Origin: a virus
UHGV virus genome: UHGV-0795592
Length of the DNA stretch: 23,456 nucleotides
Reading direction: 5' to 3' (one strand)
Part shown: in pieces, positions 13,733 through 20,667 of the stretch
Position numbering within the stretch: the first letter of the stretch is position 1
How the letters are laid out: the number at the start of each line of letters is the position of its first letter
The notes under the pieces: generated by a model
Told to the model about the DNA's origin: nothing
Seen by the model: the letters and a program-made list of their open reading frames with translations, nothing else
Databases searched by the model: none
Made by a program: the position numbers and the translations under genes

Positions 13733-14278
13733 TCAAAAGTGGCCTTTTACTTGTGGAACATAGATTTCAAAGGTTGCTTTACCATCATCTGAGGGTCTTG
13801 ACTGCACCTTTGCAAATACACGGTTATCATACAGTTTATCGAAGAAGTTTTCAAAAGGTAAATACACAGTGACCTCTTCAGTAACTTTATGGAAAACTGT
13901 ATGGAACACTACATCAGCATACGGTAAAGCATTAACAAGAACACCTGCACCACCAATTACAAAGACATCTTCATCAATAGAGCTATCAAGATACTTCAAA
14001 AATGCTCCAAATGACTCTTTAGTGGCCTTAGCATACATTATATCATCTTTGCCAAAGTCTATGCCTAAATATGGTACAGAATTTGTTAAGATTAGGTTTG
14101 CACGTTCTGGTAAAGGTTTACTCCCCAGAGTCTTAAAAGTCTCATTACCCATCACTACTAAGTTGTTTTTAGTGAGCCTCTTAAACTCTTGCATATCCTG
14201 TTTATGTCGAGGCCACGGCATACCAGTTGGAGTACCAAATTCACCATTTTCACCACTTGCGAAGATTAATTTAATCAT
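13733..14278 (-). CDS. folA: dihydrofolate reductase
   Basis: 181 aa with DHFR hallmarks: GMPW near the N-terminus, VVMGNETFKTLGSKPLPERANLILT, and VIGGAGV. Its stop lies 1 nt before the thyA ATG (TGA-T-ATG). Confidence 0.9.
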   Translation of the reverse strand: MIKLIFASGENGEFGTPTGMPWPRHKQDMQEFKRLTKNNLVVMGNETFKTLGSKPLPERANLILTNSVPYLGIDFGKDDIMYAKATKESFGAFLKYLDSSIDEDVFVIGGAGVLVNALPYADVVFHTVFHKVTEEVTVYLPFENFFDKLYDNRVFAKVQSRPSDDGKATFEIYVPQVKGHF

Positions 14279-14535
14279 TTTATAAACCCTTTATTAATGA
14301 ACCAGTTGATAACACTCTTCACAGCTTTATTGCTGTGGTAGATTAAGTGTGGTGTAGGTTGGTATGAACCATAAGCCCAGAATGATAGATGCTCACCGCA
14401 ACCAACACATGTAGTACTCTCTTCAGCTATGTTACCATTAACAATCACATGAACTTCACCTTGCAAGTCTGTACATCCACAATGTGGGCATCGGATAGGT
14501 GTCCCATCAGACTCATAACAGTGTTCAATTTTCAT
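14275..14535 (-). CDS. zinc-ribbon protein, unknown function
   Basis: 86 aa with CPHCGC … CVGCGEH (two CxxC pairs). ATG with Shine-Dalgarno GAGGT. Stop overlaps the DHFR start (ATGA). Confidence 0.5.
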   Translation of the reverse strand: MKIEHCYESDGTPIRCPHCGCTDLQGEVHVIVNGNIAEESTTCVGCGEHLSFWAYGSYQPTPHLIYHSNKAVKSVINWFINKGFIK

Positions 14536-15425: not shown

Positions 15426-15725
15426 TTAATCTGCCAACCTTAAATTAAAATTAACACCAAATTTTTCACATACTTCCAACATATACTCAAGGGAAACATT
15501 CCCAGTGAGGTGGATTATGTTGGATACACGAGCCTGAGAGATACCACAAATTTTAGCAACTTGCTCTTGGGAAAGACCTCTGGATTTAATCTCTCTCTTA
15601 AAACGATGTGCAACGAAATCTCTCATTTCGTCTACATCCATTGGACAAATATAACTCTCCATTTCAGCCTCTCTATCAGCCTCCCAATCATCTTGTGGGG
15701 CATAAGGGTCAAAAGCTCCATTCAT
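15426..15725 (-). CDS. helix-turn-helix DNA-binding protein (XRE-like), putative regulator
   Basis: C-terminal HTH signature LSQEQVAKICGISQARVSNI; acidic N-terminal half. Start re-called to ATG at 15725 (MNGAFDPY…) with a purine-rich Shine-Dalgarno; the track start at 15755 is TTG. Confidence 0.6.
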   Translation of the reverse strand: MNGAFDPYAPQDDWEADREAEMESYICPMDVDEMRDFVAHRFKREIKSRGLSQEQVAKICGISQARVSNIIHLTGNVSLEYMLEVCEKFGVNFNLRLAD

Positions 15726-15930
15726 CTTTCTTCTTCCGTTTGCGTGAAGTGTCAATCAATGAATCTATGTTTGTAGCCCTAACCTTTTCACGTTCATCGT
15801 TAAGATAATCATCAAGAGCCTTTTCAATCTGTGAATCATCTTGACAGATAACTGTAAAGACTGTAAAGCCATCTGTATCATCAATTATCTTACCATAACC
15901 GCTTCTGGGATGTAACTTTTTAAGAGCCAT
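15709..15930 (-). CDS. hypothetical small protein
   Basis: 73 aa, ATG start, basic C-terminal tail (SRKRKKKDEW). Overlaps the HTH gene start by about 17 nt. Confidence 0.4.
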   Translation of the reverse strand: MALKKLHPRSGYGKIIDDTDGFTVFTVICQDDSQIEKALDDYLNDEREKVRATNIDSLIDTSRKRKKKDEWSF

Positions 15931-15931
15931 A

Positions 15932-16315
15932 TCAAATACCTGTGCAGCTTCTGTTTTCTAAGAAATACTCAACACCATACATAGCTTTTTGCATCAAATC
16001 TTCTTTAAACTGGATGCGATGGTTGAGCATAGATTGTACGTCAATGTCCTCATGGTGCTTCTCTTTAATATTTGCAGATTGCAGGAAATACTCTGCAAGA
16101 ACGCGATATTGATAGTCAGTTACCTTATCAGTCATCTCTGTTAAAGACTCTTCAGAGATTGGTTTAAGTAGCTCGCCATTAGCTAGAGCAACACCTTTAA
16201 CAATCTGACAAGTGTCTTCTGGAACACCTGATAAGTCCACATTTGGAAGTTCTGTTGCATTGACTGGTAAATTCATTGCCATAACCATTGCAGCAGCTAA
16301 TAAAATCTTTTTCAT
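15932..16315 (-). CDS. Sec-secreted (periplasmic) protein of unknown function
   Basis: 127 aa with a classic signal peptide, MKKILLAAAMVMAMNLPVNA then TELP. ATG with Shine-Dalgarno GAGGT. First gene downstream of repeat region A and its promoter. Confidence 0.55.
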   Translation of the reverse strand: MKKILLAAAMVMAMNLPVNATELPNVDLSGVPEDTCQIVKGVALANGELLKPISEESLTEMTDKVTDYQYRVLAEYFLQSANIKEKHHEDIDVQSMLNHRIQFKEDLMQKAMYGVEYFLENRSCTGI

Positions 16316-16359
16316 AATGACCTCAAAGTTATATTAAATTTTGTATTACATTGAGTGTA

Positions 16360-16407
16360 AAAATAAGCTATAACACCTGACTTGTCAACAGATTTTATAG
16401 CTTATTT
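16360..16407 (-). promoter_or_regulatory. sigma70-like promoter embedded in a 13-bp perfect inverted repeat
   Basis: On the minus strand: -35 TTGACA (plus 16383-16388), 17-bp spacer, -10 TATTTT (plus 16360-16365). Inverted repeat arms AAATAAGCTATAA (16361-16373) and TTATAGCTTATTT (16395-16407) flank the -35. Confidence 0.4.
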
Positions 16408-16850
16408 GGCAGATTTTTTATAAGGCTACTGCCATCCTTCCATACCTTACCGAACATCACCCTACTGAACCCGACCCTACCTCACCCGACCCAACCGAAC
16501 CGTACCGAGCACAGACTTATTAAAAGACCCTGTTTAAAGACCTTTTAAAAAGGTAAGTCTCATTTTAATGTAGTTGAGACTAACTACCCGCACCGAACCT
16601 CACATGACCTGACCGCACCCGACCTCACCGCGCCATGCCATAACATACCTTACTTAAAAACCCTTTTCAAAGACTCTTAAGTGATGTAATCGAATTTTAA
16701 TGTAGCTCCGATTAACTACCCATACTTTACCTAACCCGACCGCACCTAACCCGACCTGACCCTACCAGACCCCACCTAGCTAAACCTTATTAAAAGACCC
16801 TGTTTAAAGACCTTTTAAAAAGGAGCCTCCGAAGAGGCTACCTAGTCAAC
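16401..16850. repeat. modular non-coding repeat region A: three (ACCNN)n pentamer arrays, AT-rich motifs and hairpins
   Basis: Arrays at 16444-16508, 16592-16656 and 16724-16788, with AC at every fifth base on the plus strand. Motif M1 (ttattaaaagaccctgtttaaagaccttttaaaaagg) at 16517-16553 and identically at 16787-16823. Motif M2 at 16653-16686. Hairpins at 16556-16581 and 16687-16714. No ORF in the track. Confidence 0.75.
16824..16845 (-). terminator. candidate intrinsic terminator after the 146-aa gene
   Basis: Hairpin AGCCTC-CGAA-GAGGCT (16824-16839). Read on the minus strand it is followed by CCTTTTTAAAAGG. It lies directly 3' of the gene ending at 16851. Confidence 0.4.
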
Positions 16851-17291
16851 TTAGAATGGTTTTCTACGTTGCTTGTTAATATTAGCCTTCATAGCAGCTA
16901 AGTGGTTTTGCTGTTCAATCAGCCGTGAACGTTCTTGATGACTAAGTGCCATAGTGTTCACATTCTCAATCGCTTGAGTGGCTTGCTTTAAAGCTCGACC
17001 AATCTTGCCAGACATTTTACGTTTTGCAATAGTTGCTTGATGCTTAGGTTCAACCACACGATAACCAACACCCATTGAAGCAACCAGATAAATCTTCTCT
17101 TCTTTAAGAAGCTTCTCAATAAACTTCTCAAGTCGGTTTAGACGTGTAAGCGCATAAGCCTTCATTTCATCTTCGTACTTAACAATGTCACCTTGATAAG
17201 TTGGCTTCACAATACCTAAGAAGGTATCCATCTCAGAGTGTGATACAGTGTCACCGTAACTAAACTTTGCTGCTAATGCTTTTGTGTTCAT
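16851..17291 (-). CDS. hypothetical protein with a basic C-terminus
   Basis: 146 aa, ATG with Shine-Dalgarno GAAGGT. C-terminal K/R-rich tail (NINKQRRKPF). No recognisable motif. Confidence 0.5.
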   Translation of the reverse strand: MNTKALAAKFSYGDTVSHSEMDTFLGIVKPTYQGDIVKYEDEMKAYALTRLNRLEKFIEKLLKEEKIYLVASMGVGYRVVEPKHQATIAKRKMSGKIGRALKQATQAIENVNTMALSHQERSRLIEQQNHLAAMKANINKQRRKPF

Positions 17292-17293
17292 AA

Positions 17294-17899
<606 letters not shown>

Positions 17900-17950: not shown

Positions 17951-18280
17951 GAAACTTGGTAGATTTTTAACGTGGCTGCTACCATCCACCCATACTTTAC
18001 CTAACCAAACCGAACCTCACACAACCAGACCGAGCCGCACCCCGCCTTATTAAAAGACCCTCTTAAAGACCTTTTAAAAAGGTAAGTCTCATTTTAATGT
18101 AGCTGAGACTAACTACCCATACCCTACTTTACCTTACCGTACAGTACTTTACCCGACCACACCGGACAATACTTAACCCTACCTCACCCGACCGGACATC
18201 ACTTAAAAACCCTTTTCAAAAACTCTTAAGTGATGCTGGTGAGTACCCGTTGGTTTATGCTGCTCAGTATACTCACCAAA
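17951..18280. repeat. modular non-coding repeat region B, homologous to region A: two (ACCNN)n arrays, M1, M2 and hairpins
   Basis: Arrays at 17994-18043 and 18121-18205. M1 variant at 18047-18082 (2-3 differences). Hairpin at 18085-18110 identical to region A but for one loop base. M2 at 18202-18235 (1 mismatch). Extra 8-bp-stem hairpin at 18238-18277. Confidence 0.75.
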
Positions 18281-18300
18281 TTTTCTATGTCAACAACTTT

Positions 18301-20606: not shown

Positions 20607-20667
20607 ATAACCTCCTATACAAGATACAGTATAAGGTACTCTTCCATGAGCACCTTGTCAATACTAA

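What the first reader, a model, noticed from the sequence alone, without database searches (positions are those of the whole stretch)
15932..16407. Sec-secreted protein expressed from a promoter sitting inside a 13-bp perfect palindrome
The 127-aa ORF has a cleavable signal peptide and is the first gene after repeat region A. Its sigma70-like promoter (-35 TTGACA) lies in the loop of a 13-bp perfect inverted repeat (AAATAAGCTATAA / TTATAGCTTATTT). That is a classic operator geometry for a dimeric repressor, so the gene may be under switch-like control. A periplasmic phage protein could act in exclusion, envelope remodelling or inhibition of a periplasmic host factor.
Basis: partly seen in the sequence, partly recalled or inferred. 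Interest (0 to 1): 0.5.

Follow-up and report, generated by a model that had tools for sequence, protein, structure and literature searches.

The report
Promoter nested in hairpin, secreted protein
In a Felix O1-like phage, a host-type promoter sits inside a strongly conserved inverted repeat in front of a small exported protein of unknown function. The repeat looks more like the promoter-plus-stem-loop cassettes known from T4-like phages than like a repressor switch.

Summary
The window is a Felixounavirus (Felix O1-like) genome segment. ORF 16315..15932 (-) encodes a 127-aa protein with a Sec/SPase-I-type signal peptide (VNA|TE). About 45 nt upstream lies TTGACA-17-TATTTT, and the -35 sits between two perfect 13-nt inverted arms (16407..16395 and 16373..16361). 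This is the only perfect inverted repeat of 11 bp or more with a loop of 40 nt or less in the window. It occurs once in a 90-kb relative genome, and both arms are invariant in 32 distinct relatives.

The operator reading is poorly supported:
- The arm centres are 34 bp apart.
- The neighbouring HTH protein is 98/99 identical in two Suspvirus phages, one with the palindrome and one without.
- Other consensus promoters of the same phage also sit in hairpins, each with different arm sequences.
- A distant relative keeps a hairpin at this position only through G·U pairs on the sense strand.

On the sense strand the repeat folds into an 18-bp hairpin (-17.8 kcal/mol) followed by AUUUUU. The element also marks a mosaic junction: 98-99% identity upstream, 32% in the gene.

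The best reading is a composite stem-loop/promoter cassette analogous to T4-type PeSLs. This is an inference and is not proven.

The protein belongs to a small Ounavirinae-only family. It is predicted to be a three-helix bundle with two invariant cysteines. Its homologue in phage SUSP1 is dispensable in the laboratory. Its function is unknown.

The parts
15932..16315 (-). ORF127 (equivalent to Felix O1 ORF87 / Felix01p159; phrog_4332). Exported small protein, mature part about 107 aa, predicted three-helix bundle.
16256..16315 (-). Signal-peptide coding part (residues 1-20, MKKILLAAAMVMAMNLPVNA, predicted cleavage VNA|TE).
   Evidence: Rule-based analysis and conservation across diverged alleles. 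Weak N-terminal match to a fimbrial precursor model.
16321..16324 (-). Shine-Dalgarno GAGG, 5 nt before the ATG.
16329..16348 (-). AT-rich near-palindromic 5'-leader element TAATACAAAATTTAATATAA. It is the only upstream element shared with relatives that lack the 13-bp palindrome.
16354..16359 (-). TACACT box (TATACT in nearly all relatives), 23 nt after the -35. It looks like the remnant of the TTGACA-N16-TATACT promoter type found after the ligase gene. The mosaic junction lies directly downstream of it.
16360..16365 (-). -10 hexamer TATTTT, 17-nt spacer. It also forms the U-rich tail that follows the hairpin.
   Evidence: (conserved in L033)
16361..16373 (-). Promoter-proximal arm TTATAGCTTATTT.
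16383..16388 (-). -35 hexamer TTGACA, in the 9-nt apical loop of the extended hairpin.
16395..16407 (-). Promoter-distal arm AAATAAGCTATAA.
16408..16440 (-). Invariant block GAAGGATGGCAGTAGCCTTATAAAAAATCTGCC joining the pentamer repeats to the palindrome (1 variable site in 33).
15426..15725 (-). HTH_3 (Cro/C1-type) regulator, third gene of the same operon. Alternative TTG start at 15755.
15709..15930 (-). 73-aa ORF (phrog_4473). Its ATG lies 1 nt after the ORF127 stop, which suggests translational coupling.

Best explanation
The inverted repeat and the promoter form one composite intergenic cassette, not a repressor switch.

Proposed mechanism:
- On the sense (-) strand the repeat folds as an 18-bp A/U-rich RNA hairpin. 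Its 9-nt loop carries UUGACA, and AUUUUUA follows it.
- In transcripts arriving from upstream (the consensus promoter after the ligase gene and the G-rich pentamer-repeat leader), this hairpin terminates, attenuates or marks the RNA for processing.
- The sigma70 promoter nested in the same DNA (TTGACA-17-TATTTT) re-initiates transcription of the operon ORF127 - ORF73 - HTH - ORF119 - ORF171 - ORF86 - DHFR - thymidylate synthase.
- The same element is the joint at which gene modules have been exchanged between Ounavirinae genera.

The first product, ORF127, is exported by Sec, cleaved after VNA, and is predicted to fold in the periplasm as a three-helix bundle, possibly disulfide-bonded. It is an accessory, fast-diverging host-interface protein. 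Superinfection exclusion or inhibition of an envelope factor is a guess.

Shown: the anatomy, conservation, uniqueness, predicted fold energies, mosaic boundary, recurrence of the architecture, and dispensability of the SUSP1 homologue.

Inferred: terminator or attenuator activity, promoter use, export, and the protein's role.
For: Hairpin and its position:
- Sense-strand RNA fold is -17.8 kcal/mol, z -4.2, and 0 of 200 shuffles fold as well.
- The core stem (-13.0) followed by AUUUUUA is comparable with the canonical terminators in this window (-9.1 and -13.8).
- The distant relative L033 (protein 33% identical) keeps TTGACA-17-TATTTT and a hairpin at the same place, starting 14 nt after the stop codon of the upstream gene. 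It differs by one A-U to G-C swap and several G·U pairs. It folds at -16.9 (z -3.0) on the sense strand but only -7.0 (z 0.2) on the antisense strand.

Recurrence in the same phage:
- In SME50, 8 of 19 TTGACA promoter-like sites have a perfect stem of 7 bp or more nearby, against 8.3% of random windows (p = 8e-5).
- Four of them share the geometry '-35 in the loop, second arm abutting the -10', each with different arm sequences.
- One of these is listed as terminators t42/t43 in the Felix O1 genome paper (PMC3185647).
- The promoter after the ligase gene carries an inverted repeat around its -10 whose arms differ among four phage types. RNAalifold scored compensatory changes at 5 of 11 predicted pairs on an imperfect alignment, and direct reading shows an 8-9 bp repeat in each type.
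- The promoter after DNA polymerase has an 8-bp hairpin filling its spacer.

[quoted passage not shown] They have measured terminator activity and act as recombination joints (PMC2839356; PMC4122927).

Mosaic joint:
- Between this window and SUSP2, ORF200 and ORF146 are 98-99% identical and the promoter/palindrome is identical. ORF127 is then 32% identical and the downstream genes 60-75%.
- The same block also precedes a third allele type (L072). The Susp-type and ESh22-type alleles also occur without it, behind the ligase-type promoter (EP1, L071, ESh22).

Protein:
- Signal peptide and two invariant cysteines in all alleles.
- AlphaFold2 mean pLDDT 86, with helices at 31-45, 55-87 and 93-121.
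- Only 6 representative clusters among 1.84 billion proteins.
- The SUSP1 homologue agp037 is scored 'Not Fit' (PMC11879866).
Against: - There are no transcript-end or start-site data for any Felix O1-like phage, so termination and promoter use are untested.
- The stem is A/U-rich, has a 9-nt loop and an internal mismatch, and was not called by the terminator scan. It is also absent from the part of the Felix O1 paper's terminator table that was read.
- In this window a canonical terminator (16839..16824) already lies upstream, so little transcription may reach the hairpin.
- Covariation is thin. Only one distant sequence is informative, and 169 of 500 column shuffles scored as high. Its changes are transitions that an operator half-site consensus (ARGCYRTAAAA) would also tolerate.
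- Both arms are invariant in 32 distinct sequences and in about 231 phage records, with no G·U variants. This fits sequence-specific recognition at least as well as pairing alone.
- Unlike PeSLs, the copies in this genome share only the hexamers, not a block of about 100 bp.
Confidence: 0.45

Rival explanations
1. Operator. A dimeric or tetrameric regulator binds the two arms and occludes the -35/-10. The regulator could be the HTH_3 protein encoded two genes downstream, another phage protein or a host protein. This would give autoregulated or switch-like expression of the operon.
For: - The dyad overlaps both promoter hexamers.
- Both arms are invariant (0 of 26 sites) while the loop (5/21), the leader (11/45) and third codon positions (59/128) vary. 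The block is near-invariant in 231 records.
- An HTH gene lies in the operon that this promoter would drive. It has weak similarity to R-M control proteins, which autoregulate at their own promoters.
- The L033 half-sites keep 8-9 of 11 positions.
Against: - Centre-to-centre spacing is 34 bp. The arms have no internal dyad beyond AGCT. This is not the one-turn geometry of Cro/CI-type or C-box operators.
- The site is unique in the 90-kb SME50 genome; no second site was found even at 3 mismatches.
- The HTH protein is 98/99 identical in SUSP2 (palindrome present) and EP1 (palindrome absent), and its recognition-helix region ISQ(A/S)RVSNI is kept in all genera.
- Other promoters of the same phage sit in dyads with unrelated sequences.
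- HTH knock-down in SUSP1 had no fitness effect.
- The 33 nt upstream of the dyad are equally invariant, so the constraint is not specific to the dyad.
Confidence: 0.2
2. DNA-level element belonging to the adjacent repeat region. The dyad, together with the invariant 33-nt block and the G-skewed (NNGGT)n arrays, would form a replication-origin-like or recombination element. One version is an R-loop origin primed by the ligase-downstream promoter. Another is a cruciform or recombination hotspot. Under this reading the promoter overlap is secondary.
For: - In every case examined, the Felix-type palindrome occurs together with pentamer blocks (Felix-type phages, SUSP1, SUSP2, L072). Mordin, ESh22, EP1 and L071 have neither.
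- The block lies in the replication-gene module between ligase and the DHFR/thymidylate synthase genes.
- Strong strand asymmetry: GC skew is -0.45 to -0.59 in the blocks.
- The mosaic junction falls at the element.
Against: - L033 keeps the hairpin-promoter without any pentamer repeats.
- A 21-nt (or 9-nt) loop and A/T-rich arms are poor for stable cruciform extrusion.
- Nothing identifies an origin in these phages.
- TTGACA-17-TATTTT is itself conserved, so the promoter is not incidental.
Confidence: 0.15
3. No dedicated function. The dyad would be a by-product of how the element arose, a 7-bp expansion of a TTGACA-N16-TATACT promoter. Its uniformity would reflect recent spread by recombination.
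For: - Alignment with the ligase-type promoter suggests an insertion between the -35 and TATACT.
- The whole block of about 90 nt is uniform, and it sits in front of three unrelated alleles, as a recently exchanged module would.
Against: - A perfect 13-bp dyad is expected in only 2% of shuffled windows.
- The adjacent loop and leader do vary within the same set of sequences.
- A diverged relative retains a hairpin at the same place.
Confidence: 0.1

Closest known systems
PeSLs (promoter-early stem-loops) of T4-type phages (Arbiol et al. 2010, PMC2839356; Comeau et al. 2014, PMC4122927)
   Same: - Intergenic cassette with a consensus sigma70 promoter, an AT-rich upstream stretch, and a stem-loop placed between the -35 and -10 or overlapping the -10, followed by a Shine-Dalgarno sequence and ATG.
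- Sits at insertion/replacement boundaries between closely related phages and in front of small genes of unknown function.
   Different: - The host phage is an Ounavirinae, not a T4-like phage.
- The stem is A/U-rich (PeSL stems often contain polyG/polyC), and here the -35 itself lies in the loop.
- Copies within the genome share only the hexamers, not a repeat of about 100 bp.
- Terminator activity, mini-circle formation and promoter strength have not been tested here.
Felix O1 terminators t42/t43 (Whichard et al. 2010, PMC3185647, Table 2): gggtatTGACAatgtgtttaataccc
   Same: - Same phage lineage and the same geometry: TTGACA at the stem/loop junction, the second arm in the 17-nt spacer, and TAATAT directly after the stem.
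- Already annotated as a rho-independent terminator pair.
   Different: - Unrelated arm sequence and a shorter 9-bp stem.
- Lies upstream of the tRNA cluster.
- The palindrome studied here does not appear in the part of that paper's Table 2 that was read.
Autoregulatory operators of Cro/CI-type repressors and R-M controller (C) proteins
   Same: - A dyad overlapping the -35/-10 of the promoter that drives the regulator's own gene.
- The regulator is a small HTH_3 protein.
   Different: - Those operators are dyads of 14-20 bp (half-site centres about one helical turn apart), usually in tandem. Here two 13-nt arms lie 34 bp apart and the site is single.
- The regulator does not co-vary with the site.
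Exported small phage proteins acting in the periplasm (for example T4 Spackle, the T4 RI antiholin, T5 Llp); named from my own knowledge, not tested by direct comparison
   Same: Small, early or middle-expressed, with an N-terminal export signal, non-essential in the laboratory, and variable between relatives.
   Different: - No sequence match to any PDB chain and no informative fold match.
- No lipobox.
- No functional data.

Membership tests
PeSL-type composite promoter/stem-loop cassette | Consensus sigma70 early-type promoter in an intergenic region, followed by a Shine-Dalgarno sequence and start codon | tested here: met
   TTGACA-17-TATTTT scores 10/12. GAGG lies 5 nt before the ATG. Conserved in all relatives, including L033.
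PeSL-type composite promoter/stem-loop cassette | Stable stem-loop overlapping the promoter (between the -35 and -10, or over the -10) | tested here: met
   13+5 bp hairpin, -17.8 kcal/mol, z -4.2. The right arm fills the spacer and covers 5 of 6 bases of the -10.
PeSL-type composite promoter/stem-loop cassette | Many copies per genome with sequence conservation over about 100 bp (substrate for homologous recombination) | tested here: not met
   Several promoter-in-hairpin sites exist (8 of 19, p = 8e-5), but their arms are unrelated. The 13-mer is unique in SME50. Only GTTGACA and TATACT recur.
PeSL-type composite promoter/stem-loop cassette | Located at indel/replacement joints between related phages | tested here: met
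   98-99% identity upstream against 32% downstream between the window and SUSP2. The same block precedes three allele types. The Susp-type and ESh22-type alleles also occur without it.
PeSL-type composite promoter/stem-loop cassette | Stem-loop terminates or attenuates upstream transcription; promoter is active | not testable with these tools
   Needs reporter or terminator-probe assays, or TSS/TTS mapping.
Repressor operator for a dimeric HTH protein | Dyad symmetry overlapping promoter hexamers | tested here: met
Repressor operator for a dimeric HTH protein | Half-site spacing that one dimer can span (about one helical turn), or an internal dyad in each arm | tested here: not met
   Arm centres are 34 bp apart. 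Each arm reads ATA-AGCT-ATA, with no dyad beyond AGCT (read directly from the sequence).
Repressor operator for a dimeric HTH protein | Site and cognate regulator occur and vary together | tested here: not met
   The HTH protein is 98/99 identical in SUSP2 (site present) and EP1 (site absent).
Repressor operator for a dimeric HTH protein | Specific protein binding and regulatory effect | not testable with these tools
   Needs EMSA or footprinting and reporter assays.
Intrinsic (rho-independent) terminator | Stable hairpin directly followed by a U-rich tract, downstream of a transcription unit | tested here: inconclusive
   The hairpin core is -13.0 kcal/mol and is followed by AUUUUUA. In L033 it starts 14 nt after a stop codon. 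However, the stem is A/U-rich with a 9-nt loop and a mismatch, and the terminator scan did not call it.
Sec/SPase I secretory protein | Positive n-region, 10-12-residue hydrophobic h-region, small residues at -3/-1, no lipobox, no further transmembrane segment | tested here: met
   MKK / ILLAAAMVMAM / VNA|TE. Mean Kyte-Doolittle hydropathy is 2.7 for the h-region and at most 0.71 for any 19-residue stretch of the mature part. The layout is conserved in all alleles. This is rule-based only; no SignalP was run and export has not been shown.
Any characterised protein family (Pfam, NCBIfam, PADLOC, PDB, BFVD) | Significant sequence or fold match | tested here: not met

The most novel reading that the evidence does not exclude
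The hairpin-promoter is the 3' end of a distinct non-coding unit. The consensus promoter after the ligase gene would drive a hypervariable, G-rich (NNGGU)n transcript that ends at this hairpin. This is clearest in Felix O1 itself, where the whole unit would be about 190 nt with no ORF. That RNA, or the R-loop it forms on the C-rich template, would act as a replication primer/origin or as a protein sponge. The nested promoter would couple its termination to re-initiation of the operon that begins with a fast-evolving exported protein. A variant of this reading is that the invariant dyad is a single-site operator for a regulator that has not been identified.
Probability: 0.12. Interest if true: 0.6.

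Novelty: new member of a known kind. Interest (0 to 1): 0.3.

Why it matters
How Felix O1-like phages time their transcription is unknown. They are widely used for Salmonella typing and for biocontrol, and the 2010 genome paper states this gap explicitly.

If promoter-in-hairpin cassettes work here as PeSLs do in T4-like phages, three things follow:
- The many consensus promoters placed directly after genes would be explained as insulate-and-restart units.
- Module exchange between Felixounavirus, Suspvirus and Mooglevirus would have a concrete mechanism.
- PeSL-type design would extend beyond the T4 group.

The exported protein is a compact orphan family whose alleles diverge far faster than their neighbours. 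That pattern is typical of host-interface or exclusion factors, but nothing yet points to a new mechanism.

Tried and rejected
- Rfam scan of the whole window: no family matched.
- Search for further copies of the 13-mer: none in the window at 2 mismatches or fewer. None in the whole SME50 genome; the hits at 2-3 mismatches are scattered, unpaired and mostly in coding sequence.
- Widening the covariation set with the 14-mer AAAATCTGTTGACA in IMG/VR returned unrelated sigma70 promoters. An earlier scan used a wrong gap range and missed the family (corrected).
- The metagenome scan added one new configuration (L072) but no new hairpin variant.
- Literature searches for Felix O1 transcriptomics, start-site mapping or origin mapping found nothing relevant. 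The UAB_Phi87 genome paper lists promoters only in a supplement and does not discuss this site.
- TATACT as the real -10 was rejected. It lies 23 nt from the -35 and varies (TACACT here, TATACC in L063 and L033), whereas TATTTT at 17 nt is invariant.
- A lipoprotein reading was rejected because there is no lipobox.
- The lowest-identity GenBank variants of the block differ only in homopolymer length, and two of the four examined are unverified records. They give no informative arm substitutions.

Full report
**What the window is.** The region matches Felixounavirus genomes (Ounavirinae, Felix O1-like myoviruses of E. coli and Salmonella). The 1.6 kb around the finding is 96.8% identical to Escherichia phage SME50, and 259 phage records match it. 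The genes around the finding run on the - strand in this order: DNA polymerase, small ORFs, ATP-dependent ligase, ORF200, ORF146, the ORF of the finding, a 73-aa ORF, an HTH_3 regulator, three more ORFs, DHFR, thymidylate synthase. In Felix O1 itself the gene is ORF87 / Felix01p159.

**Checking the observation.**
- The ORF runs 16315..15932 (-), 127 aa, with GAGG 5 nt before the ATG.
- The N-terminus MKKILLAAAMVMAMNLPVNA|TE has a basic n-region, an 11-residue hydrophobic core (mean hydropathy 2.7) and a single -3/-1 site. It has no lipobox, and the mature part has no further hydrophobic stretch.
- Four alleles that are only 30-34% identical keep this layout (ASA|MK, AAA|MK, AYA|VM) and two invariant cysteines, C36 and C124. 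That pattern is expected of an exported, disulfide-bonded protein. Export itself has not been shown.
- The palindrome arms are AAATAAGCTATAA (16407..16395) and TTATAGCTTATTT (16373..16361), perfect over 13 nt. With two mismatches the arms extend to 19 nt, leaving 9 nt between them.
- TTGACA (16388..16383) lies between the arms. TATTTT (16365..16360), 17 nt downstream, lies almost wholly within the proximal arm.
- This is the only perfect inverted repeat of 11 bp or more with a loop of 40 nt or less in the window. A 13-bp one arose in 2% of dinucleotide shuffles.
- The promoter match alone is not above chance (18 sites against 21.4 expected). Position, orientation and conservation make it credible.

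**Conservation.**
- Thirty-two distinct Felix-type sequences were compared. Neither arm has a single variable site (0 of 26). The loop has 5 of 21, the leader 11 of 45, and third codon positions of the gene 59 of 128.
- The 91-nt block is present at 95% identity or more in 230 of 231 phage records that carry it. The few outliers differ only in homopolymer length.
- The 33 nt upstream of the dyad are equally invariant (1 of 33). The pentamer repeats just beyond them are hypervariable.
- The 13-mer occurs nowhere else in the window or in the complete 90-kb SME50 genome.

**Is it an operator for the neighbouring HTH protein?** Four observations argue against this.
- Geometry. The arm centres are 34 bp apart and each arm (ATA-AGCT-ATA) has no internal dyad beyond AGCT. 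This is not the one-turn half-site arrangement of Cro/CI-type or controller-protein operators.
- Co-occurrence. Two Suspvirus phages have HTH proteins that differ at 1 of 99 residues. SUSP2 carries the palindrome and EP1 lacks it entirely. The recognition-helix region is conserved in all genera.
- Regulon. There is no second site anywhere in the genome.
- Generality. Of 19 TTGACA promoter-like sites in SME50, 8 have a perfect stem of 7 bp or more close by, against 8.3% of random windows (p = 8e-5). Four share the geometry seen here, with the -35 in the loop and the second arm abutting the -10, and all have different arm sequences. The Felix O1 genome paper lists one of them (gggtatTGACAatgtgtttaataccc) as rho-independent terminators t42/t43 (PMC3185647).

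The window itself holds two more promoter-hairpin composites.
- After the ligase gene: TTGACA-16-TATACT at 18293..18266, with arms TGGTGAGTA (18278..18270) and TACTCACCA (18245..18237).
- After DNA polymerase: TTGACA at 20661..20656, with the hairpin AGGTGCTC/GAGTACCT filling the spacer.

The ligase-promoter repeat has different arm sequences in four phage types: GGTGAGTA/TACTCACC, CCTGACGGG/CCCGTCAGG, TTAGTGGG/CCCACTAG and TCCGGTAG/CTACCGGA. This indicates that pairing is what is conserved.

What still favours an operator is the absolute invariance of the arms. A pairing-only constraint should allow some G·U transitions, and none are seen.

**What it most likely is.**
- As sense-strand RNA the repeat folds into 13+5 base pairs with a 9-nt loop, UUGACAAGU. 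The energy is -17.8 kcal/mol, z -4.2.
- The core (-13.0) is followed by AUUUUUA and is comparable with the canonical terminators in this window.
- A distant metagenomic relative, L033, has a protein 33% identical in the same gene order. It keeps TTGACA-17-TATTTT and a hairpin at the same position, starting 14 nt after the stop codon of the upstream gene.
- Relative to the Felix type, L033 has one A-U to G-C swap and several G·U pairs. It therefore folds well only on the sense strand: -16.9 (z -3.0) against -7.0 (z 0.2). That points to an RNA-level role.
- This rests on a single informative sequence, and the formal covariation count is not significant (169 of 500 shuffles as high).

The closest described system is the PeSL of T4-type phages. 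[quoted passage not shown] **Mosaic joint.** The joint behaviour is visible here.
- Between this window and SUSP2 (a different genus), ORF200 and ORF146 are 98-99% identical and the promoter/palindrome is identical. ORF127 then drops to 32%, and the downstream genes are 60-75% identical.
- The same block also precedes a third allele type (L072). The Susp-type and ESh22-type alleles also occur directly behind the ligase-type promoter, with no palindrome (EP1, L071, ESh22).
- The junction lies immediately after the TATACT box.
- Felix O1 itself has ligase, promoter, one pentamer block, palindrome and ORF87, with no intervening ORFs.

Alignment suggests the Felix-type promoter derives from the TTGACA-N16-TATACT type by a 7-bp expansion. 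TATTTT at 17 nt is then the working -10. TATACT varies (TACACT here, TATACC elsewhere) whereas TATTTT does not.

My best explanation is therefore a composite stem-loop/promoter cassette that insulates the operon from upstream transcription and restarts it (confidence 0.45). An operator (0.2), a DNA-level role tied to the repeat region (0.15) and no dedicated function (0.1) are the rivals.

**A better operator candidate.** The only upstream element shared by palindrome-bearing and palindrome-less relatives is an AT-rich near-palindrome between the -10 and the Shine-Dalgarno sequence: TAATACAAAATTTAATATAA (16348..16329), consensus about TATACAAAATnTTATATAGG. A related TATAC-N8-GTATA element follows the promoter after DNA polymerase. 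If the conserved HTH protein regulates this operon, this element fits better than the 13-bp palindrome. This was not tested.

**The protein.**
- No Pfam family matches, and the PHROG match (4332) has unknown function.
- Only six representative clusters exist among 1.84 billion proteins, all in Ounavirinae-like contexts.
- AlphaFold2 with a shallow alignment gives a confident model (mean pLDDT 86, above 90 for most of the mature part). It is a three-helix bundle with helices at 31-45, 55-87 and 93-121.
- In the genome-wide CRISPRi-ART screen of phage SUSP1, the homologue agp037 and the HTH agp035 are both 'Not Fit', meaning dispensable on a laboratory host. The upstream ORF146 homologue agp038 is 'Semi-Fit' (PMC11879866, supplementary file 16).
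- RT-PCR in Felix O1 placed ORF87 among genes maximally expressed at 25 min (PMC3185647, Table 3).
- The gene is the most diverged in its neighbourhood (32% against 60-75%). This suggests a host-interface or exclusion role, which is inference only.

**Verdict.** The gene and signal peptide are credible. The 'repressor switch' reading is weakly supported. The element fits a known design, a promoter nested in a stem-loop at a module joint, that has not been described for Felix O1-like phages. I rate it a new member of a known kind, with modest interest (0.3).

Noticed in passing
window 16443-16785 and 17973-18202 (- strand reads (NNGGT)n): Arrays of 5-nt-period GGT repeats, about 12-14 units per block, with three blocks in the first region and two in the second. 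GC skew on the + strand is -0.45 to -0.59. The blocks are hypervariable between phages that are otherwise about 95% identical, yet they keep the 5-nt period. Conserved spacers separate them, and the spacers carry their own inverted repeats with differing arms (AGTCTC/GAGACT against AATCG/CGATT). Felix O1 has one block; Mordin, ESh22 and EP1 have none. There is no Rfam match, and the Felix O1 genome paper does not mention them. Possible roles (R-loop origin, RNA sponge, antisense rut site) were not tested.
   Followed up: partly
window 18293..18237 (- strand): Consensus promoter TTGACA-16-TATACT directly after the ligase stop codon. An inverted repeat brackets its -10 and start site (TGGTGAGTA 18278..18270 / TACTCACCA 18245..18237). 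The arm sequences differ among four phage types (RNAalifold: compensatory changes at 5 of 11 predicted pairs). It drives transcription into repeat block B and ORF200.
   Followed up: partly
window 20661..20616 (- strand): The promoter after the DNA polymerase stop codon is TTGACA-N17-TACCTT, with TATACT 22 nt after the -35. An 8-bp hairpin, AGGTGCTC-ATGGAA-GAGTACCT, fills the spacer. A TATAC-N8-GTATA dyad follows, just before the Shine-Dalgarno sequence. The spacer hairpin is conserved in sequence across genera, including L033.
   Followed up: partly
window 16851..17896 (- strand; ORF146 and ORF200): A two-ORF cassette (phrog_5926 and phrog_4652, both of unknown function) lies between the pentamer blocks. 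It is present in this phage, SME50, SUSP1 and SUSP2 but absent from Felix O1, Mordin, ESh22 and EP1. It is 98-99% identical between genera, which suggests recent horizontal transfer. The SUSP1 homologue of ORF146 is 'Semi-Fit' in CRISPRi-ART.
   Followed up: partly
window 16354..16359: This window reads TACACT where almost all relatives read TATACT. Only one metagenomic contig (L069, CYGL01000008.1) shares this variant, and its ORF127 carries a frameshift near the 3' end.
   Followed up: no
window 14275..14535 (- strand, 86-aa ORF): Sub-threshold matches to CxxC zinc-binding and Lar restriction-alleviation models (NCBIfam ECs_2282_CxxC, E = 1.8e-5, below the cutoff; anti_R_Lar, E = 0.003). This could be an anti-restriction protein in the same operon.
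   Followed up: no
GenBank records GU169904.1 (labelled Staphylococcus phage SA1) and MG065664.1 (labelled Campylobacter phage A132): Both contain Felixounavirus sequence at 91-97% identity across this region. They are probably mislabelled or chimeric/contaminated records.
   Followed up: no
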